Below, piece after piece: positions 2-14,922 of a stretch of 64,000 bases of DNA. Each line of letters starts with the position of its first letter. The stretch's first letter is position 1. Origin of the DNA: an uncultured Pseudomonadota bacterium (GTDB lineage Bacteria > Pseudomonadota > Alphaproteobacteria > RF32 > CAG-239); contig CABUUO010000002.1 of NCBI GenBank assembly GCA_902494875.1, forward strand, positions 32,547 through 96,546. The letters run 5' to 3'. The position numbers and the translations under genes are program-made. Below the pieces are notes generated by a model. That model was not told the DNA's origin. It saw nothing but the letters and a program-made list of their open reading frames with translations, and ran no database searches.

Positions 2-316
2 GAAGAAAGCACTCCGCAAAACGGCGATGAGAACCTGGTTGAAGACCCGGTAGAAGATTGGCTTGCAGAAGAAGGCAAAACCCTGAAAACCCTGCTGACC
101 GAATGGAGCGACAAAGCCGGCTGGAGACTGATTTGGAACTCTAACCGCAATTATACATTGACTGCAGGCGCAATGTTCCGCGGACGCTTTGCCGACGTCA
201 GTTCAGCGCTGATCAGAGCTTTTGCAAGGGCGCGGCCGGCTCCGATTGCAACATTTTATAAAGGCAACCGCGTATTGGTTGTAGAGACACTGGAGGATGA
301 AAATGCATATGAATAA
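2..316 (+). CDS. C-terminal fragment of a pilus biogenesis protein encoded upstream of the secretin (PilM/TcpQ-like position)
   Basis: Reading frame 2 is open from the window edge to a TAA at 314-316 and overlaps the secretin start. The family assignment is by gene position only. Confidence 0.35.
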   Translation, partial: EESTPQNGDENLVEDPVEDWLAEEGKTLKTLLTEWSDKAGWRLIWNSNRNYTLTAGAMFRGRFADVSSALIRAFARARPAPIATFYKGNRVLVVETLEDENAYE

Positions 317-1919
317 TTATACCAAAGCGGTTTTGGGCTTTTTTGCCGCGGCAGCCATCGCCTCATGCTCCATGTCAACGCATCTGGACGCCGAAATTGA
401 ACGCGAAATCGAAACGGCGACCAAACTGAAAGAAGAATCAAAAGCTCCGGGAAAGCCGATTGCTGATGATATCGTACGGGTTAAGAACGACATCTGGCTC
501 GGAGACAAATCTCAAGTCGAATATGAAGGCGAACCCCTTCCCAGTTATCTGGAAGGCAAAGACGGCGTGACGCTTATCAGCAACAGGCCGATTACGCTGT
601 TTGAAATCGGTGACATGATTACCAAAATCACGTCCGTGGGCGTTCGTTATGCTTCTCATCTTGAGAAAGACATTCGCGACATGGCCAAGGAAAACAAGCC
701 GGATCCGGAAACGATTAATGCGGACTGGACCGAACCCGATAAAATGCTGGTTTCCTATAAAGGCCCTTTAAGCGGTTTGCTTGACGAAATTGCCACTCGG
801 TTCGGCATCTGGTGGAAGTATGAAAAAGGACAAATTTACTTCTACAAATATGAAAGCAGGACTTTCGTTCTCTACAGCTTGCCGACAAAACCCTCGCTCA
901 GCGTTTCCATGGGCGGAAGCTCCTCGGGCGAGAGCGGAAACGCGTCAACTACGCTTACCAGCCAGATTGACGTTGCTTTATGGGACAACATTGAAAAAGC
1001 CATTACATCCATGATCAGCGGCGATTCAAAGCTGACAATGGATCCGGCCAACGGAACGATTTCAGTTTTGGCGACACCGATCGAGGTTAAAAGAATTGCA
1101 AAATTCATCAACGAACAAAATGCAAGACTGTCCCGTCAGGTTGCCATCAGCGTAAAAGTCCTGCAGGTCACGGTTGCCGATTCAGACAAATACGGCCTGG
1201 ACATTGCCGCGGCGTTTAACGACGGCGTGACCAGCTTGGGCGTAGCCGGCGCATCCGGTTCGACCGGCGAAACGACCAATAACCTGCTGATGAGCATAGC
1301 CCCCGGCAACTGGAAAGTTGACAGCTTTATTCAGGCGCTGTCTACCAAAAACGATACGTCTTTGGTTACCAGCGGTACGGTTACGACGCTGAACAACAAG
1401 CCGGCGCCGATCCAGGTCACCAAAAAACAGAACTATATTTCCGAAATTACAAAAACAAACTCCGGCAGCAGCGACGGCAGCAGCGACTATGACATTTCAA
1501 CCACGACAGAAGAAATCGAAACGGGTTTCACGCTTGACGTTCTGCCGAGGATTCTGGAACACGGACGTTTGATGATGATGTTCAACCTGACTCTGTCAGA
1601 CCTGATTTCACTGGAGAAGGTTTATCTGACAACCAGCGAAAGCGGCGAAGCAGATTCAGGACAATACATTCAGAACCCGATTGTCGAAACCCGCGGCTTT
1701 ACGCAGGAAGTGGCGATGAAATCCGGTGAATCCCTGATTTTGAGCGGTTATGAACGCGTTGAAAGCAAAGCAGACAAAACCGGTGTCGGTTCGGCAGAAA
1801 ACTCTCTGCTCGGCGGAACGGCCAGCGCTGAAAAAACCAGAAGCATGCTGGTTATCATTTTGACGCCGGTGGTTTTGGAATCGCCGCTGACGCCGGAATC
1901 CAGAATGAAAACATACTAA
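297..1919 (+). CDS. Type IVb pilus secretin, lipoprotein (PilN of R64 / BfpB / TcpC family)
   Basis: N-terminal lipoprotein signal with lipobox (AAAIAS-C). C-terminal secretin-like region (VLATPIEVKRIAKFI...QVAISVKVLQV, Gly/Ser/Thr-rich beta-domain). It is the first gene of a pilus operon. Confidence 0.7.
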   Translation: MKMHMNNYTKAVLGFFAAAAIASCSMSTHLDAEIEREIETATKLKEESKAPGKPIADDIVRVKNDIWLGDKSQVEYEGEPLPSYLEGKDGVTLISNRPITLFEIGDMITKITSVGVRYASHLEKDIRDMAKENKPDPETINADWTEPDKMLVSYKGPLSGLLDEIATRFGIWWKYEKGQIYFYKYESRTFVLYSLPTKPSLSVSMGGSSSGESGNASTTLTSQIDVALWDNIEKAITSMISGDSKLTMDPANGTISVLATPIEVKRIAKFINEQNARLSRQVAISVKVLQVTVADSDKYGLDIAAAFNDGVTSLGVAGASGSTGETTNNLLMSIAPGNWKVDSFIQALSTKNDTSLVTSGTVTTLNNKPAPIQVTKKQNYISEITKTNSGSSDGSSDYDISTTTEEIETGFTLDVLPRILEHGRLMMMFNLTLSDLISLEKVYLTTSESGEADSGQYIQNPIVETRGFTQEVAMKSGESLILSGYERVESKADKTGVGSAENSLLGGTASAEKTRSMLVIILTPVVLESPLTPESRMKTY

Positions 1920-1939
1920 ACTTGATTTAGGAAAAAGCA

Positions 1940-3220
1940 ATGGCGCTTGAAGATGCTAATTTGACAGACATTAATCCTGATGCAGAAGGGAAACGCACTT
2001 GGGGAACCAAAATAACGGTTGACGGCACCAGTTATGCCACCAGTCTGTTCTGGCAGCCCCTGCAAAATCAGGAAGATCCGTTTACGGAAGTCGGAGAAGC
2101 GTCCGAAGGTATTCTGGAAGGCGCCGATTTGTTTTGTATCAAGCCGGGCAAGGCACCGCAGTTTGGTATCTGCGTTTCTCACGAAGGTTATAAGAGCGGA
2201 GAAAACGTCGCCGCGGTTGCTTTGGCAACCGCGCTGTCCGACCGTTCGTCTTTTGTGGCAGTTTTTCAAACCGACAAAGGCTGGTGGTATACCTGCGTCA
2301 GAAACGACATTATCCTTTCTGACGGCGATATGCTGTTTTTAAACGAAGAAGACGCCAAAAACCAATTTATTTCGATGTTGGCCGTACCGGACTGGGGACG
2401 TAAAATTGCACCGGCGGCTTGGGGTATTGAAGAAACCGAGGATATTGAGCTGGAAAAATTGATGCAGCGCGGATTACACTCCAAACTGCAAAAGATCAAA
2501 GGGCTCCGCGGCGCCAAACTGCTGATGGTTATCGGCATTTCGGCAGTAGTTGTTTTCTGGCTTTTGTCTAATATTATTAACGCATTGTTTTTTACCCCCA
2601 AAAAGCGTCCGGTCATTGTTCCGGTTCAGCCTAAAATAATCAAGCCGGTAGTGGAAAAAGCGCCGGAGGTTAAACCTTGGGAACGCTTAAACGATCCGTC
2701 TCAGGTTATGAGCGGATGCATGGCAAAAATCGAACAGCTGGTCAGAATTATGCCGCCCGGATGGCAAATTGGCAACCTCAGCTGCACTCCGACCGGCGTA
2801 TCAACCAGTTGGAACAGACAAATCGGACGTTTGTCCTGGGTAAAAAAAGCTTTGGACGTGTCGGGAATTCAGTTTTCATATCGGACGTTTTCCGATACGG
2901 GCGACAGTATAGCGGCGGGCGTATCGTTGGGAAAAATCGTTCAGATTTCTTCACCGCCGATGAAAAGTCCGACGGAGCTTCGGGAGATGCTGAACGACTT
3001 TTTCCAAGGCATTAACCAAAACGTCGCTTTGAGCGACGGTTCTTATACATCGCCGGAAAAGAATATATATCGCTTTATCGGCTTTCGGTTTTCATCAACG
3101 TACAATCCGGAAGTATGGAGCGGCTTGTTAACAAAATTTTCAGGACTTGAGATTAAAGTTATAAATTATTCACCCAGTACAAATGTCTGGACCTACGAGG
3201 GGGCTATTTATGCATTATAA
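1940..3220 (+). CDS. Pilus assembly protein, PilO(R64)-like, single transmembrane segment
   Basis: 426 aa with one central hydrophobic helix (LLMVIGISAVVVFWLLSNIINALFF). Its size and position after the secretin match R64 PilO / Bfp assembly components. Confidence 0.4.
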   Translation: MALEDANLTDINPDAEGKRTWGTKITVDGTSYATSLFWQPLQNQEDPFTEVGEASEGILEGADLFCIKPGKAPQFGICVSHEGYKSGENVAAVALATALSDRSSFVAVFQTDKGWWYTCVRNDIILSDGDMLFLNEEDAKNQFISMLAVPDWGRKIAPAAWGIEETEDIELEKLMQRGLHSKLQKIKGLRGAKLLMVIGISAVVVFWLLSNIINALFFTPKKRPVIVPVQPKIIKPVVEKAPEVKPWERLNDPSQVMSGCMAKIEQLVRIMPPGWQIGNLSCTPTGVSTSWNRQIGRLSWVKKALDVSGIQFSYRTFSDTGDSIAAGVSLGKIVQISSPPMKSPTELREMLNDFFQGINQNVALSDGSYTSPEKNIYRFIGFRFSSTYNPEVWSGLLTKFSGLEIKVINYSPSTNVWTYEGAIYAL

Positions 3221-4619
3221 TATGAAAAAAATATTTGTGACAACGGCGCTGGCGTTAATATTCGGTTTAACCTGTTCCGGAAATGTTATGGCACAGGCTG
3301 CCATTTCTTTGTCTGATGATGCAAAAAAAGCCGACACCCAATCTGCTGCCAACGAGATTCCAGATGAAATATCTCTGTTTGGCGATGACGGCGACGATAT
3401 TCTGACACCGCCGGCGAAAACCGAACCAGAAACAGCGAAAACCGAAAATAAACCGGAAGCAGCCAAAGATGACAAACAGGCTCCGTCGGAAACGGCAGCT
3501 CCGGGTCTGCCGGTTTTAGACATGCCGGCACAGCCCGAAAACGTTGAAAAGCCGCAAATTCCGGCCATTCCCGTTATCCCGGCCCCGGCGGCACAACAGG
3601 CCCCCCAGCCCGCAGCCATTCCCGAACCCAAACAGCAGGTTCCGGTCTTCAGCCAGTTGGGCAGTCAGATTATTGAAGACATTGACGACGACGTCTTTGC
3701 CAAAATGTCTGATCTTGAAAAAGAAACGGCAGTTTTGAATTTGGAACTGCGCAAAGAAAAAGTCAAAAACGACATTGAGGCTCTGCGCGCCATGCGCGAC
3801 AAAGCCCAAGAAGAGGAAGAAGCGCGCAAACACGCCGAAAAGCTTAAACAAATCGCTCTTGAAAAAGAGGAAGAGCGAAAAATCCTTTTGGAACAGCAAA
3901 AGTTAAAAAATCTTGAAATCGTTTATGAAAAAGAACGTCAGGAAAAGCTGTTAAAGGCATATAAAAACAAAATGCTGGAAGAAAGCCAGAAGTGGATAGA
4001 ACGCAATGCCGAAAATTATAAAGAAATCGCGGACTTGAAAAATGAACGGCAAAAACTTATTAATGACTTTAAGGGCAAGTTTGTCCAACTGACCAAAATG
4101 GCCGATGAAGCAACAAACGAGGCAATCCGGGTACGGGATAATTATGCCAAGACAATATCAGATCTGCAAACTCAGATATCTATTCTCAATGCTCGTCTGG
4201 AAGCAAGCGAGAAAACCAATCCGTTTGCGGAAAACGGCGGAGAACAAGCGGCTCCGCTTGAGGAAGAAGAGGCCTTAAAGCTTAGTGATTTGTATGCCGT
4301 TATGGAAATTCGCGGCAAAGGAAAAAATTTGAGCGCAAAATTGATTAACGAGAGCGGAGCACCATTCTTTGTCAAAGTGGGTACCGTGTTGCAAAGCGGA
4401 CATGTTGTTGACGAAATATCCTCAACTTATGTCCGGGCCGACAAAGAGGGCAGCAAAGATTATCTTTATTTCTCGGCCGGCGGCGTTCTTGATCAGGAAC
4501 CGGTGACCAACGAGGAGTTGAAAGTAAAGGTTTCCGATCCGGAGCAAGCTCCGGCGCCGAGCGGTATTGTTTCAAACCAAGGGATTCCCGGAATTGCTAG
4601 AGAAATGACCGTCAGATAG
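3210..4619 (+). CDS. Secreted pilus assembly protein with Pro-rich linker and long coiled-coil (PilP-like C-terminal domain)
   Basis: Signal peptide MKKIFVTTALALIFGLTCSGNVMA, preceded by a GAGGGGG ribosome-binding site. It has a Pro/Ala/Gln-rich segment, a Glu/Lys-rich heptad region and a C-terminal beta-rich domain. Confidence 0.4.
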   Translation: MHYNMKKIFVTTALALIFGLTCSGNVMAQAAISLSDDAKKADTQSAANEIPDEISLFGDDGDDILTPPAKTEPETAKTENKPEAAKDDKQAPSETAAPGLPVLDMPAQPENVEKPQIPAIPVIPAPAAQQAPQPAAIPEPKQQVPVFSQLGSQIIEDIDDDVFAKMSDLEKETAVLNLELRKEKVKNDIEALRAMRDKAQEEEEARKHAEKLKQIALEKEEERKILLEQQKLKNLEIVYEKERQEKLLKAYKNKMLEESQKWIERNAENYKEIADLKNERQKLINDFKGKFVQLTKMADEATNEAIRVRDNYAKTISDLQTQISILNARLEASEKTNPFAENGGEQAAPLEEEEALKLSDLYAVMEIRGKGKNLSAKLINESGAPFFVKVGTVLQSGHVVDEISSTYVRADKEGSKDYLYFSAGGVLDQEPVTNEELKVKVSDPEQAPAPSGIVSNQGIPGIAREMTVR

Positions 4620-4621
4620 TC

Positions 4622-6310
4622 ATGGCAGATGAGATGGAAAACGAACCGGAAGAGAAAGAAGTCAAGGATAGTCAGGAAAAACCGGCCGACGGAGTACCCA
4701 GCGTAGCGGTTTCAACCGGTCCTGTTGCGGCTCCGATTACCCAGTCTTTAGGCAAGCTGGAACTTTATTTTGCCAACGGACGAAAATTGCTCACCGTTCC
4801 CGGCGGAACTCTTAATATCAATGATGACACGCGCCGGCTTCTGGCCTTGTTCTCTGACGGAAGTTTTTTGGTAGCCGAATCACATAAGTTCGACGGACGC
4901 GTTTTGAGCTTTGAAGTTTTGGCACGCAGGAAACGGATTAACATCTTAAAACCGGTCTATCTGTCTCAAAACGAGCTTAACGCCATTTACAACTATGCCG
5001 AAAGAAACGTTGCCGACGCCGATGCCGACGAAGATCTTGACGCATTGCAAATGCAGAAAGACTTTGTGAACGTTATTGCCCGGGCCGCGGAAAAAAAGGT
5101 GTCCGATATTCACGTTGTGGTGGCAGACAGCACGCAGATTATGTTTCGCGTCAACGGCATGATGTCCATTGAAATGGAATATAACAAAGACTGGGGCGAA
5201 TCTTTTGTCCGCGCGGCCTTTGCTTCGGCGGACATTTCGGACTCCAACTATGCGCAGAACGAATTTCAGGGCGCACAGAAGCTGGGGTCGACCCCTCTGC
5301 GCGGGTCTAAAGGCAAGCTGATGCTGCCGCATAACGTTTTGGCCATCCGCTTACAGTTTAATCCGATTGCGTTTGGTTCTCAATATTTGGTCATGCGTCT
5401 GTTGTATGCCGACGACAATCCTAACGGCAGCGGCGATTTGGCATCGTTAGGACTGGGCGAATATGAAGAGAAGCTGTTTTACCGTCTGAGAGCGGTTCCG
5501 ACCGGAGTCAGCATCGTTTCCGGTCCGACCGGTTCCGGAAAATCAACGACCCTGCAAAGAAACATGATTAAACTTTTGCAGGAAAAGAATTACGAAATTA
5601 ATCTGATTACGGTGGAAGATCCGCCGGAATATCCCATTCCCGGCGCCAGACAGATGCCGGTGACAAACGCCAATACTGAAGAAGAAAAAGATGAACAGTT
5701 CACCAAAGCGCTATCGGCGGCGCTGCGTTCCGACCCTGACGTCATGATGGTCGGTGAAATTCGTTCGCTTTCGGCTGCACAATTGACTTTTAAGGGCGCT
5801 TTGTCCGGACACGGTATGTGGACCACGCTGCACGCCAACTCAGCGCCGGCAATTATCCCCCGTCTGCGCGATATGGGCGTGGAGACATTTAAGCTCGGCG
5901 ACCCGGAGCTGGTTAAAGGATTAATCGGTCAGCGTCTGTTCAGAAAGCTCTGCCCGCATTGCCGCAAATCAGTCAAGGAAATGCTTGACGAACCGGCAGT
6001 ACAGCGTCTGAAAGTAGCTTTGGGCGATTTTGGCATTGAAAACACCTATGTACGCGGTCCCGGCTGTAAGTTCTGCGGAGGTTCCGGAATCAAAGGACGT
6101 ATGAGCGTGCCAGAGATTATTCTGCCGGATGCCATGTTTTTGGAACTGATCATTAAAGGCGAAACCCGTAAAGCCATTGACTACTGGACCAGCGATCTGG
6201 GCGGCAGAACGATGAAAGACGCGGCTATCGAAAGAATGCTGAAGGGATATATTGATCTTGACGAAGTAGAACGCTGGTGCGGACTGATGGACCAGCGCCC
6301 GGTTTATTAA
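4622..6310 (+). CDS. Type IV pilus assembly ATPase (GspE/PilB/BfpD/R64-PilQ family)
   Basis: Walker A motif GPTGSGKSTT and Asp-box/His-box region. It has a C-terminal tetracysteine motif (CPHCRK...CKFCGGSG), typical of secretion ATPases. Confidence 0.85.
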   Translation: MADEMENEPEEKEVKDSQEKPADGVPSVAVSTGPVAAPITQSLGKLELYFANGRKLLTVPGGTLNINDDTRRLLALFSDGSFLVAESHKFDGRVLSFEVLARRKRINILKPVYLSQNELNAIYNYAERNVADADADEDLDALQMQKDFVNVIARAAEKKVSDIHVVVADSTQIMFRVNGMMSIEMEYNKDWGESFVRAAFASADISDSNYAQNEFQGAQKLGSTPLRGSKGKLMLPHNVLAIRLQFNPIAFGSQYLVMRLLYADDNPNGSGDLASLGLGEYEEKLFYRLRAVPTGVSIVSGPTGSGKSTTLQRNMIKLLQEKNYEINLITVEDPPEYPIPGARQMPVTNANTEEEKDEQFTKALSAALRSDPDVMMVGEIRSLSAAQLTFKGALSGHGMWTTLHANSAPAIIPRLRDMGVETFKLGDPELVKGLIGQRLFRKLCPHCRKSVKEMLDEPAVQRLKVALGDFGIENTYVRGPGCKFCGGSGIKGRMSVPEIILPDAMFLELIIKGETRKAIDYWTSDLGGRTMKDAAIERMLKGYIDLDEVERWCGLMDQRPVY

Positions 6311-6326
6311 AGTTTAGGAGAGAATT

Positions 6327-7460
6327 ATGGCAGGCGAACAGGAAAAAAGAAGCGCGTCCAATTCGATGCAAAAGGCTATGCGCAAGCTCAATACGGTTGA
6401 GGAATATTACGCTAAGCTGATTTGTAACTTTTCCAATGAAGCACGATTAAAACTCTATCGCAAAATCGCCTCGCTGATGAGAAACCGCTTTTCTCTGATG
6501 AGTGCTTTGGATATGCTTCATGACAGCGCCAGCGACGGCGGCAAAAGTCCGGGAGAACCGATGGCTATCGCCATTGCCTGCTGGGGTCGGGCGCTCAACA
6601 ACGGTTTGACGTTTTCCGACGCTCTGAAAGGCTGGGCTCCGGACCGTGAACGACTGATGCTGTCGGTCGGTGACGTCTCAGACCTGGAAGGCGCTCTGCT
6701 CAACCTTATTCGTGTTACCGAAGGTTCAACAAAGATGATCCGTCCGATTATCGGCGCAATTGCTTACCCGACCTTTTTGTTTTTGATGGCGGTTTTGATT
6801 ATTTACGGTATCGGCGTATATATGGTGCCGCCGATGTTGGATGCGGCGCCCGGCGTTCGTTGGCGAGGACTGGCAAAAGATCTGGTTGATGTTTCGGCCT
6901 GGATTCAACAATATTGGCTGGTTGCATTTTCAGCACTGCCGATCACAATGCTGGTCATCTACCTGACAATCGGACTCTGGACCGGACCTATCCGCGCCAT
7001 TGTCGATAATATGCCGCCTTATTCACTTTATAAGGTGTTCGTCGGCATCAGTTGGCTGCTGGCCTTGTCCGCACTGGTTAAGGGCGGTACGCCGGTATCA
7101 ACGGCGATGCGGGCCTTGAGGCGCGACGCGACCCGCTATTTGAAAGAAAGAATTGACAAGACGCTGGTCTTCATCAACAACGGTGACAACCTTGGTATTG
7201 CCCTGAAAAAAACCGGACTTGATTTTCCCGATAAGGAAGTTATTGCCGATTTAAAAATTTATTCGGAATTGGATAACTTTGAAGAAGCTCTGGAATCGCT
7301 GGCCAATCAATGGCTGGAGGAGTCCGTTTATCTGATTGAGCAGAAGGCGGCTTTGTTAAATATGGCGGCAATTCTAAGCGTCGGCGGCGTTATCGCCTGG
7401 GCCGTCATGGGCACCTTTGAAATGCAAGACCAAATTACCAGCAGTATGGGACAAGGCTGA
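6327..7460 (+). CDS. Pilus inner-membrane platform protein (GspF/PilC/BfpE/R64-PilR family)
   Basis: 377 aa polytopic membrane protein immediately after the ATPase. An AGGAG ribosome-binding site precedes it. Confidence 0.65.
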   Translation: MAGEQEKRSASNSMQKAMRKLNTVEEYYAKLICNFSNEARLKLYRKIASLMRNRFSLMSALDMLHDSASDGGKSPGEPMAIAIACWGRALNNGLTFSDALKGWAPDRERLMLSVGDVSDLEGALLNLIRVTEGSTKMIRPIIGAIAYPTFLFLMAVLIIYGIGVYMVPPMLDAAPGVRWRGLAKDLVDVSAWIQQYWLVAFSALPITMLVIYLTIGLWTGPIRAIVDNMPPYSLYKVFVGISWLLALSALVKGGTPVSTAMRALRRDATRYLKERIDKTLVFINNGDNLGIALKKTGLDFPDKEVIADLKIYSELDNFEEALESLANQWLEESVYLIEQKAALLNMAAILSVGGVIAWAVMGTFEMQDQITSSMGQG

Positions 7461-8047
7461 TGGAAAAGGCAAAAATAATTTTTAATAAAGCAATAAAAAT
7501 TTTTCATTCACCGGAAAGAATCGGCATTGCCGCGGCCGGAGCCGTTGTCATAATTGCCGCGGCAGCTTGGTTTTTGCTTAAAAGTCCGAAACCAGACGCC
7601 AATATTGTTACGGCCGGCAATCAAATCAGCCTGTTGACAGATAATGTACGAAAATTTTACCGTAATCGTCCCGATGCTTGGGGACTAAATACGCAATCTG
7701 TTTTGAAAAATGCAATTGCTCCCCAGGAAATGGTTCAAAACGGCAAATTGATTAACGCATTAGGAAAGGAAACCTTGGTCGGTGCGGATTCAAACGGCAC
7801 GACGGTTATGCCCGGCAGCAGAAATTTTGCCATTACTTTCAGAGGACTGGATTATGAAGAATGCGTTGAACTGTCCGCACTGGCTCCCGACGAAAAGACA
7901 GCATTGAGCCTTACTTCGGAAACGATTGCCAACGAGACAGAAACAATGTTTATCTGGGGCGGAGAACATCCGCTTCCGATAACAAGAAAAGCTGCGGAAG
8001 AATTCTGCAAACAACAAAATTCTCTCATTTGGAACATATTGTTATAG
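7460..8047 (+). CDS. Divergent pilin-like protein (minor pilin candidate)
   Basis: N-terminal hydrophobic helix. Its C-terminal region matches the pattern of the two downstream pilins (F-x-G-L-x-x-[DE]-x-C-V-x-L-[AS], with a second Cys near the C-terminus). Its start overlaps the platform gene's stop (TGATG). Confidence 0.4.
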   Translation: MEKAKIIFNKAIKIFHSPERIGIAAAGAVVIIAAAAWFLLKSPKPDANIVTAGNQISLLTDNVRKFYRNRPDAWGLNTQSVLKNAIAPQEMVQNGKLINALGKETLVGADSNGTTVMPGSRNFAITFRGLDYEECVELSALAPDEKTALSLTSETIANETETMFIWGGEHPLPITRKAAEEFCKQQNSLIWNILL

Positions 8048-8127
8048 TTTCTGTTTTACAGAATAAAGTTATATGTTTCAAAGCGTAATTATGACTAAAG
8101 ATAGGCTTATTTATCTTTTATTAATAA

Positions 8128-8142
8128 GTTATAGTTAAGATG
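8128..8142 (+). promoter_or_regulatory. Candidate -10 / conserved upstream motif gttataGttaAgatg for pilin gene 1
   Basis: Same 15-mer (2 mismatches) found upstream of pilin gene 2; contains TATAGT. Confidence 0.25.
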
Positions 8143-8183
8143 TGAGAAGAAAAAACTTTGAAGTGTGTTTTAGGAGAAAAGAG

Positions 8184-8798
8184 ATGAAGAGTTTATTCAA
8201 AAATGAGCAGAGCGGACGTTCCATGGTGGAAATGCTCGGCGTGCTCGCGATTATCGGCGTATTGTCGGTCGGCGGTATCTCCGGTTATTCGAAAGCCATG
8301 GCTAAATTTAAACTGACCAAGGCGCAAGACCAGTTGTCCATGATGATTATGAACATCAGAACCGCATTTGCAACCTCCCCTGGTTATCCGGGTTTAACAA
8401 CAAAAAATGCTATTGATTACAAGCTGGTATCTCAGGAAATGGTCGTTGCCGGAAGTACTTCGTTGATTAACGCATTTGGCGGCGATACGATTGTTGAAGC
8501 AATTAACGGAGCGGATGGTACTCCTAACGGTGCATTCCAGATTGTATTCTCCGGTCTCGGTAAAGATGTCTGCGTCAGCTTGGCTACCTCTGATTGGGGT
8601 ACTGACGGCTTAATTGGTATCGGCGTTGCCTCTACCAAAATCAGTAAAATTACAGGTACGCCGTCCGCTGCAGTTTCATTTGCAGGTGGCGGCAGTTTGA
8701 ACGGGCCTAAGGCTCTGCCGTTGTCTATTTCTGACGTTCGTAAGTCCAATGCCTGTGGTTCGGATAACACCAACTCGATTACCTGGGTTTATAACTAA
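8184..8798 (+). CDS. Type IV prepilin (major pilin candidate 1)
   Basis: Leader ...NEQSG followed by RSMVEMLGVLAIIGVLSVGG, with Glu at +5 after the predicted Gly cleavage site. An AGGAG ribosome-binding site precedes ATG 8184. An upstream in-frame GTG at 8142 is an alternative start. The C-terminus has a disulfide pair. Confidence 0.75.
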   Translation: MKSLFKNEQSGRSMVEMLGVLAIIGVLSVGGISGYSKAMAKFKLTKAQDQLSMMIMNIRTAFATSPGYPGLTTKNAIDYKLVSQEMVVAGSTSLINAFGGDTIVEAINGADGTPNGAFQIVFSGLGKDVCVSLATSDWGTDGLIGIGVASTKISKITGTPSAAVSFAGGGSLNGPKALPLSISDVRKSNACGSDNTNSITWVYN

Positions 8799-8824
8799 AG
8801 TTATAAGAGGCATAATTTTCTATA

Positions 8825-8856
8825 AAAAGGTGTGTTTTGACACACCTTTTTATTTT
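8825..8856 (+). terminator. Rho-independent terminator after pilin gene 1
   Basis: GC stem (ggtgtg...cacacc) followed by a T-run. Confidence 0.5.
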
Positions 8857-8874
8857 ACCCGAAATAAATCTATG

Positions 8875-8889
8875 TTATAATTAGGATGA
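8875..8889 (+). promoter_or_regulatory. Candidate -10 / conserved upstream motif gttataAttaGgatg for pilin gene 2
   Basis: Contains TATAAT. It is the paralogous motif to 8128-8142. Confidence 0.25.
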
Positions 8890-8915
8890 TATTATTTAAT
8901 TAAGAGGGGTCAAAA

Positions 8916-9503
8916 ATGAACAGAAACGAACAATCCGGAAGATCAATGGTTGAAATTCTCGGCGTTTTGGCCATTGTTGGTGTGCTTTCTGTCGGCGGTA
9001 TTGCCGGCTATTCAAAAGCGATGGCTAAATTTAAGCTGACAAAGGCACAAGACCAACTGCAGATGATGGTGATGAATATCCGCACGGCTTACGTCACTTC
9101 CCCGGGATTTCCGGATCTTAATACCGCGCATGTAATTGAATATAAACTGGCCTCCTCCGAAATGATGGTTGATTCAAAAAATCTGCTGAACGCCTTTGGC
9201 GGAAAGGTTTATGTTGAGGCAACCGAAAATCTGGAAAGAAATTCCGACGGCGCGTTTGCTATTCTTTATGCCGGTCTGGGGCGGGACTCTTGCGTCAGTC
9301 TGGCAACCTCCGACTGGGGTACGGACGGACTAATCGGGATTTACGTTGATTCGACGACCGACCCGATTAACAAGATCGAAAATCCTAACGCATTGTCCAA
9401 AGAACAACTCAAACAACCTTCAGAACTTCCCATTTCGCTGACAACGGCACGAGAAAAATGCAGTTCGGACAATAACAACCTTATAACCTGGTATTATCTT
9501 TAA
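8916..9503 (+). CDS. Type IV prepilin (pilin paralog 2)
   Basis: The N-terminal 60 aa are nearly identical to the upstream pilin (MNRNEQSGRSMVEILGVLAIVGVLSVGGIAGYSKAMAKFKLTKAQDQL). The C-terminal domain is diverged. Confidence 0.75.
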   Translation: MNRNEQSGRSMVEILGVLAIVGVLSVGGIAGYSKAMAKFKLTKAQDQLQMMVMNIRTAYVTSPGFPDLNTAHVIEYKLASSEMMVDSKNLLNAFGGKVYVEATENLERNSDGAFAILYAGLGRDSCVSLATSDWGTDGLIGIYVDSTTDPINKIENPNALSKEQLKQPSELPISLTTAREKCSSDNNNLITWYYL

Positions 9504-9510
9504 GACTGTA

Positions 9511-9538
9511 AAAGCACCGATTACGGTGCTTTTTTTAT
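9511..9538 (+). terminator. Rho-independent terminator after pilin gene 2
   Basis: agcaccg-atta-cggtgct followed by TTTTTTT. Confidence 0.6.
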
Positions 9539-9567
9539 GTCGTTCCGGTGCTTTCTTTTGTTCTGTT

Positions 9568-9745
9568 ATGCCGGACCTGATCCGGTATCCAGATCAAACA
9601 TTGATTCCTGCTTCCACTTGGACTCCGAGGCAAGCCCGGAGTGACCCAGCGTGGGCGTGCAGCGCATTATTTGTCATGTTTCGCTACGCTCAACATCCCA
9701 GCCGATTAACAAGGCTGAGGCCCTTCGACAAGCTCAGGGTGACAA
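9568..9745. repeat. Intergenic repeat element, copy A (resembles a small non-autonomous mobile element)
   Basis: Shares conserved blocks with 43268-43465: gccggacctgatccgg, tgacccagcgtgggcgtgc[ag]gcgcattatt, cagccgattaa, gctgag, ttcgaca, tcagggtgacaa. It starts with the palindrome ccggacctgatccgg. Confidence 0.6.
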
Positions 9746-9754
9746 CAAAGACAT

Positions 9755-11194
9755 CTAAAACAGACTATGTATGATTTTTACCATATCCGCCATTTCTATT
9801 TTTTGCGGCAAAGGGTTCACTTTTTGCGACTTGGAATAAACCAGCAGCGGAATATTCCGGTAGCCGAATTCTTCAACGCCGTGGTCTCCGTAAATGACAA
9901 ACAGCGAATCGTCCGGGCTGTTTTCGACCAGCCAACGCAATGACTGATCGACAAAGTTTACGGCATTGTAATAGTCATATTTCCGCTCCGGCGTTTTTGC
10001 AAACAGCGGACGCGGATTGTTTTTAACTTTATACTCGCTATGAGAACTGAGCGTAATGATAAAATTAAAAAGCTTATCATCCGAATGTTTTCGATTTTGT
10101 TTCAAGACAAAGTCAAACAGATCCCTGTCCGATATTCCCCAAAAATCGTCAGGATACCTGTCTTTCATATCCTCGTAGAAATAAATATCTTCATATTGCT
10201 GAGCTCTGACATGAGGACCGCGGTTGAAAAAGTCGGATTTAAAATTATGATAGAAACTCGTATGATATCCATTTGCTTTGGCTTTTTGCGACAGAGATTC
10301 CAAACGCGGCCAAACTTCCTTCGGAAGAAACATATGATAGATGATGGTAAACTCTTTTTCGGTAAAACCGCCGCTGTTCACAAAAAAATCGGTATTGGCA
10401 GAGGCGCCGTGAACCTTCTGGTTGACTTCGGCAAGCGTGCCTTCGGCGGCAAGACCGTTTAGAAACGGCGTCAATTCCCGTCCGTCAACTTTTTTATTGA
10501 TAACGTTATATGTCAGGCTCTCGGTTTGAATGACATAAATATGCCGACTTCCGGGGAAGCTGTATTTTATTTGCGGTTCACTTTCAGACAATTCAATAAT
10601 TTCATCTAAAATTTTACCGCTGCGTTTGCTTATTACCGTCTCATAAAGCCAGCAGGAGCGATAGCCGAAATTGAGGCAGGCATCATTAAAGAAACTCTGA
10701 GAAAAAAACAATATGGATACCGAGGCAAAGCTCGCATATATCAGCAAAGCCAGCGGAATAAGAAAAATCCAGAAAAAACGGCGATATTCTCTCAATATCG
10801 GATAGCAGCGGTTATAAAGCCCAAAATTGCCAAGACCGACAAGCAAAACTATCAAACTTTTATAATTTAAAACCGCTCCCGGAACCTTACTTAAAAACTC
10901 CGCCCCTTCACGATACTGAAACCAGATAATCGACAAAGACAGCGGCGGAACAAAATAGTTATGATACAGCAGCAGTCCCGAAGTTAAGACTATCTGAAAA
11001 GCTAGGGCCAGCCAGACCAAAATCCGGGGAAGAAAAAACAATATGCCCCAGAAACACATTCCGAAGATTAAAATAAAAAATCCGGCGGACATTATGTCCA
11101 AATCTGGAAAATACAATTTATTGGCTACAACGCCTTCCACACCCATCAAAAGTGCCAAAAGCAATATAAAAATGAACTTTTTATTATCTTTCAT
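9755..11194 (-). CDS. Membrane-anchored sulfatase-family transferase (LtaS / phosphoethanolamine- or phosphoglycerol-transferase-like)
   Basis: N-terminal domain with about 5 transmembrane helices. The C-terminal domain is alkaline-phosphatase/sulfatase-like (…LSSHSEYK…, VIYGDHG). It sits between the pilin genes and the PilT-like ATPase. Confidence 0.6.
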   Translation of the reverse strand: MKDNKKFIFILLLALLMGVEGVVANKLYFPDLDIMSAGFFILIFGMCFWGILFFLPRILVWLALAFQIVLTSGLLLYHNYFVPPLSLSIIWFQYREGAEFLSKVPGAVLNYKSLIVLLVGLGNFGLYNRCYPILREYRRFFWIFLIPLALLIYASFASVSILFFSQSFFNDACLNFGYRSCWLYETVISKRSGKILDEIIELSESEPQIKYSFPGSRHIYVIQTESLTYNVINKKVDGRELTPFLNGLAAEGTLAEVNQKVHGASANTDFFVNSGGFTEKEFTIIYHMFLPKEVWPRLESLSQKAKANGYHTSFYHNFKSDFFNRGPHVRAQQYEDIYFYEDMKDRYPDDFWGISDRDLFDFVLKQNRKHSDDKLFNFIITLSSHSEYKVKNNPRPLFAKTPERKYDYYNAVNFVDQSLRWLVENSPDDSLFVIYGDHGVEEFGYRNIPLLVYSKSQKVNPLPQKIEMADMVKIIHSLF

Positions 11195-11244
11195 ACTCTC
11201 TGCCGGCCTTTATTTAACAATTTATTTACTGAACTATATGACAA

Positions 11245-12252
11245 TTGAAAAAGATTGTACAGTTTATTTACAGAAAGTGTGATTATATGGTTAAACTAAA
11301 CAGTATCCGGTTTTCTGACATCTATATTACGCCGGACAAAACCTGCTTTATTCCCGACGGCGTGACCCAGAACGGTCTGGCCATTATCAAACCCGAAGAT
11401 TTTGACGTTTTTTATAATTTGATTGAGGAATCTTGGGACGGAGAAAATCCCAGCTATTCGGTACTGTATGAAAACATATTTTACCGCGTTGAACGCACCG
11501 TAGCCATTTACGGCGTTCAATACTGCGCCCGAAAGATGCCCGAGAAAGTGCCGCCGCTGGCGGCTCTTAACTTTCCGCGCGAACTGTGCCGTCATCTGCT
11601 TTCGCTCAGTTCGGCCAGCGGCCTGATTTTATGGTCAGGACCGACCGGCGCAGGAAAAACGACTTCCATCTCCGGACTGCTGAAAGAATATCTGACCATG
11701 GAAGGCGGTTTTGCCTATACTATCGAAGACCCAACCGAAATGCCTTTGGACGGCATTTACAAATCAATGAAAGGCGGCTTGGGACTTTGTAAACAAACCC
11801 AGCCGGTTAACGGCAACTGGGGTGCTTCGCTGAAGTCTGCCCTGCGTTCAAAACCACGTTTCATTTTCGTCGGCGAAATCCGCACGCCGGATACGGCCAG
11901 CGAAGTTCTGCGCGCCGCAACTTCAGGCCATCTGGTTTTATCGACCATCCACGCCAACAACATTGCCGACGCCATTAACTCGGTAGTTAAATATGCCTCT
12001 TCCACGACCATGAGCGAAGAACTGGCCTATGACCTGTTTTCACGCGGCATTCTCGGCGTAATGCACCAAACGCTGATCGGCGTTCATGACAAAAGACCGG
12101 CAATCAATTATCTATTTGCCAATCCGGATACGACCAAGGGCGACCAAGTCCGCGGCATTATCAAAGGCGGCAATCTCAATCTCGGAACATCCATTGAAAC
12201 GCAGATGACCAGAATGCGCAAAGGAATGAGCCTGTTTCCCGACTTGTCTTAA
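11245..12252 (+). CDS. PilT/PilU-like pilus retraction ATPase
   Basis: 335 aa with Walker A motif SGPTGAGKTTS and the conserved Asp/His boxes of PilT-class ATPases. An alternative start is at 11287. Confidence 0.7.
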   Translation: MKKIVQFIYRKCDYMVKLNSIRFSDIYITPDKTCFIPDGVTQNGLAIIKPEDFDVFYNLIEESWDGENPSYSVLYENIFYRVERTVAIYGVQYCARKMPEKVPPLAALNFPRELCRHLLSLSSASGLILWSGPTGAGKTTSISGLLKEYLTMEGGFAYTIEDPTEMPLDGIYKSMKGGLGLCKQTQPVNGNWGASLKSALRSKPRFIFVGEIRTPDTASEVLRAATSGHLVLSTIHANNIADAINSVVKYASSTTMSEELAYDLFSRGILGVMHQTLIGVHDKRPAINYLFANPDTTKGDQVRGIIKGGNLNLGTSIETQMTRMRKGMSLFPDLS

Positions 12253-12283
12253 AAAAAAGCCGCTTAAAAGCGGCTTTTTTTTA
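12251..12283. terminator. Bidirectional terminator between the PilT-like gene and gpt
   Basis: A-run, gccgc-ttaaaa-gcggc, then a T-run. Confidence 0.6.
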
Positions 12284-12712
12284 ATCCCAGGGGAAAACGA
12301 TCCATTCGTCCGGCATTTCTTTTTCATAGATATCGACAACCGGTGCTCCGGCAGATTTGGCATAAACCGTTACATATTTGGCCTGCGGATAAATGGCCCG
12401 CAAAATGCGAAACGTACGGCCGCTGTCTGACAAATCGTCGACAATCAGCGTTTTTTCGTTTACGGTACCGGGATGGCCGGAAATCTCAATATCTTCGTCG
12501 GCGCGGCGGTCATAGTTATTGTCATAGCTGGCAATATTGATTGACTGCGTATTGCGGATATTCAGCTCATAGGCTATTATACCGGCCGGCAGCAGACCGC
12601 CGCGGCTGATGGCGACAATTTTATCATATTCGCCGGAAGCTTTGATTTTTTGGCACAGTTTTTTGGTATGTTGATGAAATTCATCCCATTTAATATAAAT
12701 CTTATCAGTCAT
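12281..12712 (-). CDS. gpt: Xanthine-guanine phosphoribosyltransferase
   Basis: Full-length similarity to E. coli Gpt recalled from memory (IVAISRGGLLPAG..., VDDLSDSGRT...). 143 aa. Confidence 0.8.
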   Translation of the reverse strand: MTDKIYIKWDEFHQHTKKLCQKIKASGEYDKIVAISRGGLLPAGIIAYELNIRNTQSINIASYDNNYDRRADEDIEISGHPGTVNEKTLIVDDLSDSGRTFRILRAIYPQAKYVTVYAKSAGAPVVDIYEKEMPDEWIVFPWD

Positions 12713-12720
12713 AGGCAGTT

Positions 12721-13251
12721 TTATCCGTGTTGGGCTTTCAGTTTGTAAATATATTCAATAACATCTTCGTCATCCCAGTCTGCACTGCCGCGAATCCGGC
12801 CGATTTCCTCACCGCTTTTGTTGATGAGAACTGTATGCGGAGAGGTGAAAACACCGAGATCTTCCGCCAGCTTTCCGTCTTTGTCGGTATAAAACTCAAC
12901 ATCGGGAGCCTTGAATTTTTCAAGAAAACGACGCTGTTCTCCGGCATCGGCCCATTCTTCTTCCGGAGAAAGGAGAAGCAGACGAATGCCGTTGCCTTTG
13001 GTCTTTTGCGTAAATCCATTCAGGCTTTCAAGCTCTTTGATGCAGGGTGTGCAATGACGGGACCATAAATTGAGCAAAACAAAATCACCCTTGAAATCAG
13101 CTATTTTTACCTTGTGGCCGGCTTCGTCATAAATGGCACGGTCGGGCATCGGACGCGGGTAGTCAAAGATATTTACGGCATCTTTCGCAGACGCATCGAA
13201 ACAGAACAAAAAAGCCAATAAAATCCATTTTGCATATTTTTTGACTATCAT
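12721..13251 (-). CDS. Periplasmic thiol-disulfide oxidoreductase, TlpA/ResA-like thioredoxin fold
   Basis: Signal peptide and a WSRHCTPC (CxxC) active-site motif. Confidence 0.65.
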   Translation of the reverse strand: MIVKKYAKWILLAFLFCFDASAKDAVNIFDYPRPMPDRAIYDEAGHKVKIADFKGDFVLLNLWSRHCTPCIKELESLNGFTQKTKGNGIRLLLLSPEEEWADAGEQRRFLEKFKAPDVEFYTDKDGKLAEDLGVFTSPHTVLINKSGEEIGRIRGSADWDDEDVIEYIYKLKAQHG

Positions 13252-13325
13252 CTATTAATAACTTCTTTTTTTGGTTTTGATTAAACTCTGATTAAGAGTA
13301 TATAGGTATTATACCTAAATAAACA

Positions 13326-13478
13326 ATGAAAAAAGGCCTGATGATGAAAAAAATAATGCGATATATGCTGGCAGCCGTTGTAATTTCGACAATTTTTGCA
13401 ATTACGGCCTGCGGAAAAGTTTCCGGCGCAGTTCCGATTGAAGGCAGCGGCTATCCGCATACATATCCCCGCCGATAA
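13326..13478 (+). CDS. Small lipoprotein (50 aa) upstream of the vWA gene
   Basis: MKKGLMMKKIMRYMLAAVVISTIFAITACGK... with a lipobox. It is not in the ORF track because it is under 60 aa. Confidence 0.3.
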   Translation: MKKGLMMKKIMRYMLAAVVISTIFAITACGKVSGAVPIEGSGYPHTYPRR

Positions 13479-13497
13479 GACTTTTGAGGAGCGTAAT

Positions 13498-14920: not shown

Positions 14921-14922
14921 TC

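What the first reader, a model, noticed from the sequence alone, without database searches (positions are those of the whole stretch)
9755..11194. Sulfatase-family membrane transferase embedded in the pilus locus: candidate pilin phospho-form (PE/PG) transferase
The 479-aa protein has a polytopic N-terminal domain and a C-terminal alkaline-phosphatase-superfamily domain. That is the LtaS / EptA / PptA architecture. It lies antisense between the pilin genes and the PilT-like gene. Neisseria PptA decorates PilE with phosphoethanolamine or phosphocholine. A dedicated modification enzyme inside a IVb locus has not been a standard component.
Basis: inference. Interest (0 to 1): 0.55.

Follow-up and report, generated by a model that had tools for sequence, protein, structure and literature searches.

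The report
LtaS-like transferase wired to pilin genes
A membrane enzyme of the lipoteichoic-acid-synthase type sits next to the pilin genes of a type IVb pilus locus in every related genome found, and changes together with the pilins. It is therefore most likely an enzyme that decorates the pilus, probably with glycerol-phosphate, a modification not yet described for this class of pili.

Summary
ORF 9755-11194 (-) encodes a 479-aa protein with five N-terminal membrane helices and a periplasmic alkaline-phosphatase-superfamily domain. It lies between three pilin genes and a PilT-like ATPase gene in a chromosomal type IVb pilus locus of an uncultured alphaproteobacterium.

The enzyme is of the LtaS/LtaP/GacH (phosphoglycerol-transferase) type, not the EptA/PptA (phosphoethanolamine) type. 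All LtaS catalytic and glycerol-phosphate-pocket residues are conserved: E225, S265 in place of Thr300, H316, F323 (F/Y across the family), R325, H385, D437 and H438. The domain stops about 40 residues after the DH motif, so it is a short form.

In all 10 distinct divergent related loci recovered (plus near-identical copies), the gene stays beside the pilins, even where the other flank differs. It is the fastest-evolving gene of the locus: mean pairwise identity is 34%, against 84% for the assembly ATPase. Its divergence tracks that of the pilins (Mantel r=0.43, p=0.002) and not that of the machinery.

More distant relatives lie in polysaccharide or housekeeping contexts, and the nearest cultured T4bP locus (Bosea) has no such gene. 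No mass-spectrometry or genetic evidence exists, so the acceptor and the head group are inferred.

The parts
9755..11194 (-). Gene for the 479-aa short LtaS-like membrane phosphotransferase (the finding)
   Evidence: ORF. PF00884 E=3.5e-17. LtaS/LtaP are the best PDB sequence and fold matches. AF2 pLDDT 90.9.
10685..11194 (-). N-terminal membrane domain (residues 1-170): five predicted TM helices plus a conserved periplasmic loop (H78, E96, G97)
   Evidence: Hydropathy, helices in the AF2 model, family conservation.
9860..10549 (-). Periplasmic alkaline-phosphatase-fold catalytic domain (residues 216-445). The protein ends about 40 residues after the DH motif, so the C-terminal part of the LtaS ectodomain is missing.
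   Evidence: eLtaS chains are 409-424 residues long, and only about 330 alignment columns are shared.
10520..10522 (-). E225 codon, aligned with metal ligand Glu255 of S. aureus LtaS
   Evidence: Invariant in 28 family members.
10400..10402 (-). S265 codon, aligned with the LtaS nucleophile Thr300
   Evidence: The alignment with 2w5q and its T300A mutant 2w5r fixes the column. The column is Ser in 26 and Thr in 2 of 28 members. Codon checked.
9881..9886 (-). D437-H438 codons, aligned with metal ligands Asp475/His476 of LtaS
   Evidence: Invariant.
11195..11287 (.). Divergent intergenic region between the transferase gene and the PilT-like gene, with promoter-like sites for the transferase (consensus matches only)
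   Evidence: Minus-strand sigma-70-like sites at 11283-11254 and 11261-11233.
8916..9503 (+). Pilin gene 3 (PilS/Bundlin type; leader MNRNEQSG|RSMVE), the immediate convergent neighbour and a candidate acceptor
   Evidence: Pfam. The leader motif is read from the translation and assumes cleavage after Gly, which puts Glu at +5. S/T-rich hypervariable loop between the two Cys.
8142..8798 (+). Pilin gene 2 (PilS/Bundlin type; probable start at MKSLF, 8184), a candidate acceptor
7460..8047 (+). Pilin-like gene 1 (Bundlin-like globular domain, hydrophobic N-terminus, no G/E+5 prepilin motif)
9510..9533 (+). Terminator-like hairpin after the pilin operon (A-run before the stem, T-run after it)
   Evidence: sequence.
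297..7460 (+). T4bP machinery: secretin (297-1919), PilO (1940-3220), PilP-like (3183-4619), assembly ATPase (4622-6310), platform protein (6327-7460)
   Evidence: Pfam and NCBIfam.
11245..12252 (+). PilT-like (retraction-type) T2SSE ATPase gene, divergent from the transferase gene
   Evidence: PF00437 E=5.6e-28; pilT_fam E=3e-30, below the family cutoff.

Best explanation
The gene encodes an active inner-membrane phosphotransferase of the LtaS type that is dedicated to this type IVb pilus.

Proposed mechanism, by analogy with LtaS and GacH:
1. The five-helix membrane domain presents the head group of a glycerophospholipid, most likely phosphatidylglycerol, to the periplasmic metal site formed by E225, D437 and H438.
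2. S265 attacks the phosphate and forms a covalent glycerol-phosphate-enzyme intermediate, releasing diacylglycerol.
3. The phospho-form is passed to a hydroxyl group on a pilus subunit. The most likely acceptor is a Ser or Thr in the hypervariable Ser/Thr-rich loop between the two cysteines of the major pilins, while the pilin is still anchored in the inner membrane before assembly.

Because the enzyme must recognise a hypervariable pilin surface, enzyme and pilins diversify, or are exchanged, together as one cassette inside an otherwise conserved locus.

Shown here: fold, topology, conserved catalytic residues, conserved linkage to pilins, and co-variation with pilins. Inferred: donor lipid, the glycerol-phosphate head group, pilin as the acceptor, and the site.
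For: 1. Enzyme type. PF00884. The best sequence and fold matches are LtaP/LtaS, VP1736 and GacH, ahead of EptA/EptC/MCR-1.

2. Active site. E225, S265, H316, F323 (F/Y), R325, H385, D437 and H438 align with LtaS E255, T300, H347, W354, R356, H416, D475 and H476. They are invariant or nearly so in 28 members, and the nucleophile column is S or T only.

3. Topology places the domain in the periplasm.

4. Linkage. In all 10 distinct syntenic loci the gene lies inside the pilus locus. In nine it sits directly beside the last pilin gene, and in L019 the PilT-like gene lies between them. In L010-L013 the outer flank is gpsA instead of the PilT-like gene, yet the gene is still convergent with the pilins.

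5. Evolution. Mean pairwise identity over 7 divergent loci:
- transferase 34%
- pilins 47.5%
- PilP-like 47%
- PilO 63%
- secretin 68%
- PilT-like 76%
- platform 79%
- ATPase 84%
The Mantel correlation between transferase and pilin is r=0.43, p=0.002. Against PilT-like it is r=0.06, and against the platform protein -0.06. dN/dS is 0.16, like pilin 1 (0.17) and well above the machinery (0.01-0.03).

6. The pilins have a Ser/Thr/Gly/Ala-rich hypervariable loop between the Cys residues.

7. The nearest cultured T4bP locus (Bosea pANAM02) lacks such a gene, so it is a lineage-specific addition to the locus.

8. Precedent in the literature: Neisseria pilin carries phosphoglycerol added by PptB and phosphoethanolamine/phosphocholine added by PptA (PMC8445170, PMC3656113, PMC4569582).
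Against: - There is no direct evidence that any pilin is modified.
- All the linked loci come from one alphaproteobacterial lineage with shared synteny, so part of the 'conserved placement' is inheritance. Against that, neighbouring genes are rearranged in L010 and L019 while the pilus linkage persists.
- The more distant member P0033 (L025) is not next to pilins. The distant relatives P0036, P0043 and P0045 lie in non-pilus contexts, including a polysaccharide cluster. The fold as such therefore does not imply a pilin acceptor.
- The Mantel correlation is moderate, and on the smaller locus sets it is only p about 0.05.
- The fast evolution could reflect relaxed constraint rather than co-adaptation.
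- Head-group specificity cannot be read reliably from the sequence.
Confidence: 0.5

Rival explanations
1. The enzyme is a phosphoglycerol (or related) transferase for a non-pilus envelope glycan, such as osmoregulated periplasmic glucans, LPS or a capsule (OpgB/GacH-like). It merely resides next to the pilus genes in this lineage.
For: The closest non-pilus relatives sit in a polysaccharide cluster (P0045, L022: PMT_2/GtrA, GT2, Wzy_C, GT4, flippase) or in housekeeping contexts. P0033 is not adjacent to pilins and lies next to a GDPD gene and a second paralog. Among the structural relatives, GacH is annotated in its PDB entries as a phosphoglycerol transferase, and the closest jgi-named relatives are called MdoB-like phosphoglycerol transferases. 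From my own knowledge, GacH decorates a cell-wall polysaccharide and OpgB (MdoB) decorates periplasmic glucans.
Against: The gene stays within the pilus locus in all 10 distinct related loci, despite 28-65% identity and changes on the other flank. Its divergence correlates with the pilins and not with the machinery. No glycan-synthesis genes lie near it in the window.
Confidence: 0.2
2. The enzyme modifies another component of the pilus system rather than the major pilins. Candidates are the fast-evolving PilP-like protein, pilin-like protein 1, or a glycan already attached to pilin.
For: The PilP-like protein and pilin 1 are also fast-evolving (47% mean identity; dN/dS 0.11 and 0.17). The transferase versus PilP-like correlation is r=0.28, not significant.
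Against: The gene is adjacent to the PilS-type pilins, not to the PilP-like gene. The correlation is strongest with those pilins. No oligosaccharyltransferase or glycosyltransferase gene was seen in the locus.
Confidence: 0.15
3. The protein is a non-catalytic LtaS-fold protein, like PbgA/YejM, with a structural or lipid-sensing role in pilus assembly. Alternatively it is a decaying gene.
For: PbgA is among the fold matches (6xlp, E=6e-10). The gene evolves very fast, and its C-terminus is truncated relative to LtaS.
Against: Every metal-ligand, nucleophile and pocket residue is invariant or conservatively replaced across 28 members at 23-65% identity. dN/dS is 0.16. The ORF is intact in every locus.
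Confidence: 0.07
4. It is a true sulfatase or phosphatase that removes a group from a substrate.
For: The Pfam family name is Sulfatase. Carbohydrate sulfatases appear lower in the fold list.
Against: There is no C/S-x-P-x-R formylglycine motif, which by established knowledge defines true type I sulfatases; the nucleophile region reads HGASANTD. The five-helix membrane domain and the LtaS-type pocket residues are those of lipid-dependent transferases.
Confidence: 0.03

Closest known systems
LtaS / LtaP lipoteichoic acid synthase and primase (Firmicutes; PDB 2w5q, 4uop, 4uoo, 2w8d)
   Same: Five N-terminal TM helices plus an extracytoplasmic AP-fold domain. These are the best sequence and fold matches. 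The metal ligands and the glycerol-phosphate pocket are conserved: E, nucleophile, H, aromatic residue, R, H, DH.
   Different: Only 18-20% identity. It scores 45 bits against a cutoff of 970 for the LtaS equivalog model. The nucleophile is Ser, not Thr. The ectodomain stops about 40 residues after DH, giving 479 aa against about 610-650 aa. The host is Gram-negative, where by general knowledge no lipoteichoic acid is made, and the gene is embedded in a pilus locus.
GacH (S. pyogenes) and OpgB/MdoB (E. coli): phosphoglycerol transferases that decorate glycans
   Same: Same superfamily branch. GacH (5u9z, 6dgm) is a fold match at E about 1e-9. They carry out a single-transfer 'decorating' reaction rather than polymerisation, which is the kind of reaction proposed here.
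   Different: Their acceptors are polysaccharides and their genes lie in glycan clusters. Here the genetic partner is a set of pilin genes. OpgB itself could not be compared, because no sequence was available in the tools.
Neisseria PptB (pilin phosphoglycerol) and PptA (pilin phosphoethanolamine/phosphocholine) transferases
   Same: This is the functional precedent: type IV pilin Ser residues carry phosphoglycerol (PptB) or PE/PC (PptA), which changes pilus bundling and interactions (PMC8445170, PMC3656113, PMC4569582).
   Different: Those are T4a pili. As far as I know, their genes are unlinked to pilE. PptA is of the EptA type, and here the EptA-type N-terminal domain PF08019 is absent. The family of PptB could not be verified from the papers held, and its sequence could not be compared.
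Pseudomonas aeruginosa pilin accessory genes (tfpO/pilO, tfpW and others) next to pilA alleles
   Same: A modification gene lies immediately beside the pilin gene and co-varies with the pilin allele group inside a conserved locus. That is the pattern seen here. The Pseudomonas facts come from my own knowledge and were not tested here.
   Different: Those enzymes are O-oligosaccharyl- or arabinosyl-transferases acting on T4a pilins. Here the enzyme is an AP-superfamily phosphotransferase in a T4b locus.
R64/Salmonella Typhi PilL-V, Bfp and Tcp type IVb pilus loci
   Same: Same machinery set: TcpQ-like protein, PilN-type secretin, PilO, PilP-like protein, PilQ-type ATPase, PilR-type platform, PilS/Bundlin pilins and a retraction-type ATPase.
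   Different: The assembly ATPase is only 36-39% identical to its plasmid counterparts. The Bosea locus that was examined has no AP-superfamily gene. No paper linking T4b pili to such an enzyme was found.

Membership tests
LTA synthase family (LtaS/LtaP/MdoB-like, COG1368-type) | N-terminal domain of five transmembrane helices with the catalytic domain outside the cytoplasm | tested here: met
   Five hydrophobic segments and a basic N-terminus; helices in the AF2 model.
LTA synthase family (LtaS/LtaP/MdoB-like, COG1368-type) | Alkaline-phosphatase-fold domain (PF00884) most similar to the LtaS ectodomain | tested here: met
   PF00884 E=3.5e-17. PDB phmmer/hmmsearch top hits are LtaP and LtaS. 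Foldseek top 13 hits are LtaP, LtaS and VP1736.
LTA synthase family (LtaS/LtaP/MdoB-like, COG1368-type) | Thr nucleophile and Glu/Asp/His metal ligands (S. aureus E255, T300, D475, H476) | tested here: met
   E225, S265 (Ser in 26 and Thr in 2 of 28 members), D437 and H438. Ser for Thr is a conservative replacement.
LTA synthase family (LtaS/LtaP/MdoB-like, COG1368-type) | Glycerol-phosphate pocket residues (H347, W354, R356, H416) | tested here: met
   H316, R325 and H385 are invariant. Position 323 is Phe or Tyr instead of Trp.
LtaS proper (lipoteichoic acid synthase equivalog, NF053595) | Score above the curated cutoff, and a full-length ectodomain of about 430 aa | tested here: not met
   45.5 bits against a cutoff of 970. 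The protein ends about 40 residues after the DH motif, and only about 330 columns are shared with eLtaS chains of 409-424 residues. It is not an LtaS ortholog.
LtaS proper (lipoteichoic acid synthase equivalog, NF053595) | Polymerises poly-glycerol-phosphate on a glycolipid anchor | not testable with these tools
   Needs biochemistry.
EptA/LptA/PptA phosphoethanolamine-transferase family | EptA-type N-terminal membrane domain (PF08019) joined to the sulfatase domain | tested here: not met
   Only PF00884 was reported at E<=0.01. No EptA-type NCBIfam hit. EptA 5fgn ranks 19th by fold, E=8.8e-9 against 6e-15 for LtaP.
Pilin phospho-form transferases (functional class: PptA, PptB) | A gene-dependent phospho-form on pilin Ser/Thr | not testable with these tools
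   Needs mass spectrometry of pili from wild type and mutant.
Pilin-linked accessory modification genes (TfpO/TfpW paradigm) | Gene immediately adjacent to the pilin gene(s) across strains and species | tested here: met
   Nine of the 10 distinct related loci show direct adjacency. In L019 one gene, PilT-like, lies between.
Pilin-linked accessory modification genes (TfpO/TfpW paradigm) | Co-variation of the accessory gene with the pilin allele inside a conserved locus | tested here: met
   Identity table. Mantel r=0.43, p=0.002 with the pilins; not significant with PilT-like, ATPase, platform or PilO.
Type I (formylglycine) sulfatases | C/S-x-P-x-R motif at the nucleophile | tested here: not met
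   The nucleophile region is H-G-A-S-A-N-T-D.
PbgA/YejM (non-enzymatic LtaS-fold proteins) | Degenerate active site with no conserved nucleophile/metal set | tested here: not met
   The full catalytic set is invariant in the family. PbgA is a weaker fold match.

The most novel reading that the evidence does not exclude
Because its nearest characterised relatives are the LTA primase and synthase, the enzyme may not add just one glycerol-phosphate. It could prime or polymerise a short poly-glycerol-phosphate (teichoic-acid-like) chain on the type IVb pilin of a Gram-negative bacterium. That would give a polyanionic, allele-specific coat on the pilus, diversifying together with the pilin as a surface-variation cassette.
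Probability: 0.07. Interest if true: 0.85.

Novelty: new variant of a known kind. Interest (0 to 1): 0.55.

Why it matters
Post-translational decoration of type IV pili controls bundling, adhesion, immune or phage recognition and dispersal. So far it has been worked out almost only for T4a pili (Neisseria, Pseudomonas).

If this is correct, it would be the first locus-encoded phospho-form transferase of a type IVb pilus. It would also show that the LtaS branch of the alkaline-phosphatase superfamily has been recruited for protein modification in a Gram-negative lineage.

The pattern of a conserved machine with a hypervariable pilin-plus-enzyme cassette gives a clear, testable prediction of allele-specific enzyme-pilin recognition. 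It also gives a compact (479 aa) LtaS-type enzyme for structural and specificity studies.

The limits are that the hosts are uncultured and that the function is inferred only from sequence, fold and genomic context.

Tried and rejected
1. Megablast of 7400-12300 against plasmids gave no match. The locus is chromosomal: the window also holds tRNAs, an rpsB leader and housekeeping genes.

2. I looked for an EptA/PptA-type membership and rejected it, because PF08019 is absent and EptA is a weaker fold match.

3. I tried to establish which family Neisseria PptB belongs to, and to get a sequence for it. The held papers describe only its function, and the Science 2011 paper is not held. The comparison therefore stays functional.

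4. The search for related loci with the 28-sequence alignment failed because no stretch was conserved enough. The 10-sequence alignment worked but returned only 6 loci.

5. The word-indexed protein search finds few relatives. The exhaustive HMMER search was needed to see the family.

6. The AFDB Foldseek library was unavailable.

7. A tblastn search of plasmids for the transferase found only distant Firmicute LTA synthases.

8. dN/dS against L002 and L003 is unusable because dS is saturated, and one VWA codon alignment there is unreliable.

9. A search for an invariant Ser/Thr in the pilin variable loop found no single conserved acceptor column.

10. The organism could not be placed below 'uncultured Alphaproteobacteria'.
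Full report
**1. Observation**

The minus-strand ORF 9755-11194 is intact and encodes 479 aa. Pfam finds a Sulfatase (PF00884) domain at residues 219-440 with E=3.5e-17. Hydropathy gives five membrane segments (about 5-24, 36-55, 58-77, 108-126, 140-165) after a basic N-terminus (MKDNKK). This predicts an N-in topology with the catalytic domain in the periplasm. An AlphaFold2 model built on a 28-sequence family alignment is confident, with mean pLDDT 90.9 and pTM 0.84.

Upstream on the plus strand lie the following genes:
- a secretin (297-1919)
- PilO (1940-3220)
- a PilP-like protein (3183-4619)
- a T2SSE assembly ATPase (4622-6310)
- a T2SSF platform protein (6327-7460)
- three Bundlin/PilS-type pilin or pilin-like genes (7460-8047, 8142-8798, 8916-9503)

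The last pilin gene is followed by a terminator-like hairpin at 9510-9533. The transferase gene is convergent with the pilins. It is divergent from a 335-aa PilT-like ATPase gene (11245-12252), and promoter-like sites lie in the short intergenic region. The rest of the window is chromosomal housekeeping DNA: tRNAs, an rpsB leader, rpsA, cmk and sugar metabolism genes.

**2. What kind of enzyme**

Sequence searches against solved structures give the Listeria LTA primase LtaP (4uop), the LTA synthases of Bacillus, Staphylococcus and Listeria (2w8d, 2w5q, 4uoo) and the Vibrio protein VP1736 (3lxq). The E-values are 4e-10 with the single sequence and about 1e-21 with a family profile. The only notable NCBIfam hit is the Gram-positive LtaS model, far below its cutoff at 45 bits against 970.

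Foldseek of the model against PDB ranks LtaP, LtaS and VP1736 first (E=6e-15 to 1e-11). PbgA and the phosphoglycerol transferase GacH follow. EptA, EptC and MCR-1 come only after those, at E about 1e-8. No EptA-type N-terminal domain (PF08019) is detected.

The alignment with S. aureus LtaS is anchored by the T300A mutant entry 2w5r. It maps query residues to LtaS residues as follows:
- E225 to E255
- S265 to the nucleophile T300
- H316 to H347
- F323 to W354
- R325 to R356
- H385 to H416
- D437/H438 to D475/H476

In 28 family members at 23-65% identity, Q223, E225, H316, R325, H385, D437 and H438 are invariant. The nucleophile column is Ser in 26 members and Thr in 2, and column 323 is always Phe or Tyr. 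There is no C/S-x-P-x-R motif, so it is not a true sulfatase. The protein ends about 40 residues after the DH motif, so it lacks the C-terminal part of the LtaS ectodomain and is a short form.

**3. How rare it is and where it occurs**

The word-indexed search of 5.8 billion proteins found only four close relatives. The exhaustive HMMER search of 1.84 billion cluster representatives found 74 proteins at E<1e-30. About 20 of these are full-length proteins of about 465-498 aa with E below about 1e-58. No member carries a name in public sources.

The one genome hit is a MAG labelled 'uncultured Alphaproteobacteria bacterium'.

**4. Genomic context of relatives**

In every locus recovered for members down to 28-31% identity, the gene lies inside a collinear T4bP locus. 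These are 10 distinct divergent loci: L002, L003, L006, L007, L008, L010, L014, L015, L016, L018 and L019, where L007 and L008 are a close pair. Near-identical copies were also recovered (L001, L004, L005, L011-L013, L017).

In L010-L013 the outer neighbour is gpsA rather than the PilT-like gene, yet the transferase is still convergent with the PilS pilins. In L019 the order is PRT gene, transferase, PilT-like gene, pilins.

More distant relatives are not pilus-linked:
- P0033 (188 bits) lies 7.5 kb from a PilT-like gene, next to a GDPD gene and a second paralog. No pilins are visible in the 17 kb held.
- P0036, P0043 and P0045 lie in unrelated contexts. P0045 is in a polysaccharide cluster.

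The nearest T4bP loci in the plasmid collection have assembly ATPases only 36-39% identical (Bosea, Methylorubrum, IncI-type E. coli plasmids). The Bosea locus that was examined has no AP-superfamily gene.

**5. Evolutionary behaviour**

The transferase is the most divergent gene of the locus. Mean pairwise identities over seven divergent complete loci are:
- transferase 34%
- pilins 47.5%
- PilP-like 47%
- PilO 63%
- secretin 68%
- PilT-like 76%
- platform 79%
- ATPase 84%

For example, L008 keeps 92% (ATPase), 90% (platform) and 89% (PilT-like) identity to the window. Its transferase is 31-34% identical and its pilins 42-55%.

Transferase divergence correlates with pilin divergence (Mantel Spearman r=0.43, p=0.002, 11 loci). 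It does not correlate with PilT-like (r=0.06), ATPase (0.24), platform (-0.06) or PilO (0.19).

Against the 94%-identical ortholog L001, dN/dS is 0.16. That is similar to pilin-like gene 1 (0.17) and the PilP-like gene (0.11), and well above the 0.01-0.08 of the other genes. It still indicates clear purifying selection. The membrane domain is more variable than the catalytic domain, at 25% against 39% mean identity.

The pilins have an almost invariant N-terminal 45 residues and a hypervariable loop rich in Ser, Thr, Gly and Ala between their two cysteines.

The picture is a conserved machine carrying a hypervariable 'pilins plus transferase' cassette. From my own knowledge, this is the pattern known for P. 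aeruginosa pilA alleles and their tfpO/tfpW accessory genes.

**6. Most likely mechanism**

By analogy with LtaS and GacH (established biochemistry of those families), the membrane domain would present a glycerophospholipid head group to the periplasmic metal site. S265 would form a covalent phospho-intermediate, releasing diacylglycerol. The phospho-form would then be passed to a hydroxyl group.

The conserved His/aromatic/Arg/His pocket matches the glycerol-phosphate pocket of LtaS. Phosphatidylglycerol as donor and sn-glycerol-1-phosphate as the transferred group are therefore the best guess.

The genetic linkage and co-variation point to the PilS-type pilins as acceptors, probably in the variable loop and while the pilins are still membrane-anchored. 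Two weak hints agree with glycerol-phosphate chemistry: gpsA lies directly upstream in L010, and a GDPD gene lies beside the paralogs in L025.

Neisseria provides the functional precedent. PptB adds phosphoglycerol, and PptA adds PE or PC, to pilin serines, with effects on bundling and dispersal (PMC8445170, PMC3656113, PMC4569582).

I rate this explanation at about 0.5. Fold, topology, active site, linkage and co-variation are shown. Donor, head group, acceptor and site are inferred.

**7. Rivals**

- (a) An envelope-glycan decorating enzyme parked beside the pilus genes (0.2). This is favoured by the contexts of the distant relatives. It is disfavoured by the persistent linkage and the co-variation.
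- (b) Another pilus component, or a pilin-linked glycan, as the acceptor (0.15).
- (c) A non-catalytic PbgA-like protein or a decaying gene (0.07). The invariant active site and dN/dS of 0.16 contradict this.
- (d) A true sulfatase or phosphatase (0.03). There is no formylglycine motif.

**8. Novelty and verdict**

The protein is not an LtaS ortholog. It fails the equivalog cutoff, has a truncated ectodomain and comes from a Gram-negative host. It is not an EptA/PptA-family member either. It is a previously unnamed short subfamily of the LtaS branch that one alphaproteobacterial lineage has built into its T4bP locus.

No paper linking T4b pili with such an enzyme was found in the library. I classify it as a new variant of a known kind, namely pilin phospho-form or accessory modification systems.

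Interest is moderate (0.55). The co-diversifying cassette is a clear and testable idea. Against that, the function is inferred, the concept has precedents in T4a pili, and the hosts are uncultured.

Noticed in passing
window 9550-9754 and 43269-43376; L001 11505-11594: The 250-bp spacer between pilin gene 3 and the transferase gene holds a GC-rich hairpin-forming element (for example CCGGACCTGATCCGG) with a second copy at 43.3 kb in the window (75-95% identity). In L001 the matching piece lies in the opposite orientation relative to the transferase gene. It looks like a small REP/MITE-like repeat. The 82-aa ORF 9526-9774 that overlaps it has no family hit and is probably spurious.
   Followed up: partly
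window 12721-16386 (also L002, L007, L008, L015, L016, L018, L019): Five genes flank the pilus locus in nearly all related loci: a TlpA-like thiol:disulfide oxidoreductase (12721-13251, -), a xanthine phosphoribosyltransferase-like gene (12281-12712, -), and a VWA / PP2C phosphatase / Ser-Thr kinase triad (13396-16386, +). The redoxin could serve the pilin disulfide and the kinase module could regulate the pilus. Neither idea was tested.
   Followed up: no
window 7460-8047: Pilin-like protein 1 has a Bundlin-like globular domain and a hydrophobic N-terminal segment. It lacks the G|xxxxE prepilin-peptidase motif that pilins 2 and 3 have (QSG|RSMVE). The same is true of its orthologs in other loci. 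No prepilin peptidase gene was found among the ORFs scanned in the window.
   Followed up: partly
window 297-17880 versus L001: Synonymous divergence between the window and the 94-99%-identical MAG locus L001 is very uneven along the locus: dS is 0.05 in pilin 2, 0.17-0.25 in most genes and 0.5-0.7 in PilO, PilP-like, ATPase and platform. This suggests a recombination mosaic within the pilus locus.
   Followed up: no
L010 9015-9980; L025 5194-7433: In L010-L013 the glycerol-3-phosphate dehydrogenase gene gpsA lies 21 bp upstream of the transferase gene and is co-oriented with it. In L025 the family member P0033 lies near a GDPD glycerophosphodiesterase gene and a second, more distant sulfatase-domain paralog. 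Both are weak hints of glycerol-phosphate chemistry.
   Followed up: no
window 3183-4619: The 478-aa PilP-like protein is weakly matched to TIGR03021 only at its C-terminus. It is much longer than classical PilP and is the second most variable non-pilin gene of the locus (40-55% identity; dN/dS 0.11).
   Followed up: no
window 33700-34716: An ORF with a strong match to the 'Mitochondrial fission ELM1' family (PF06258, E=2e-65) lies in this alphaproteobacterial chromosome segment. It is unrelated to the finding.
   Followed up: no
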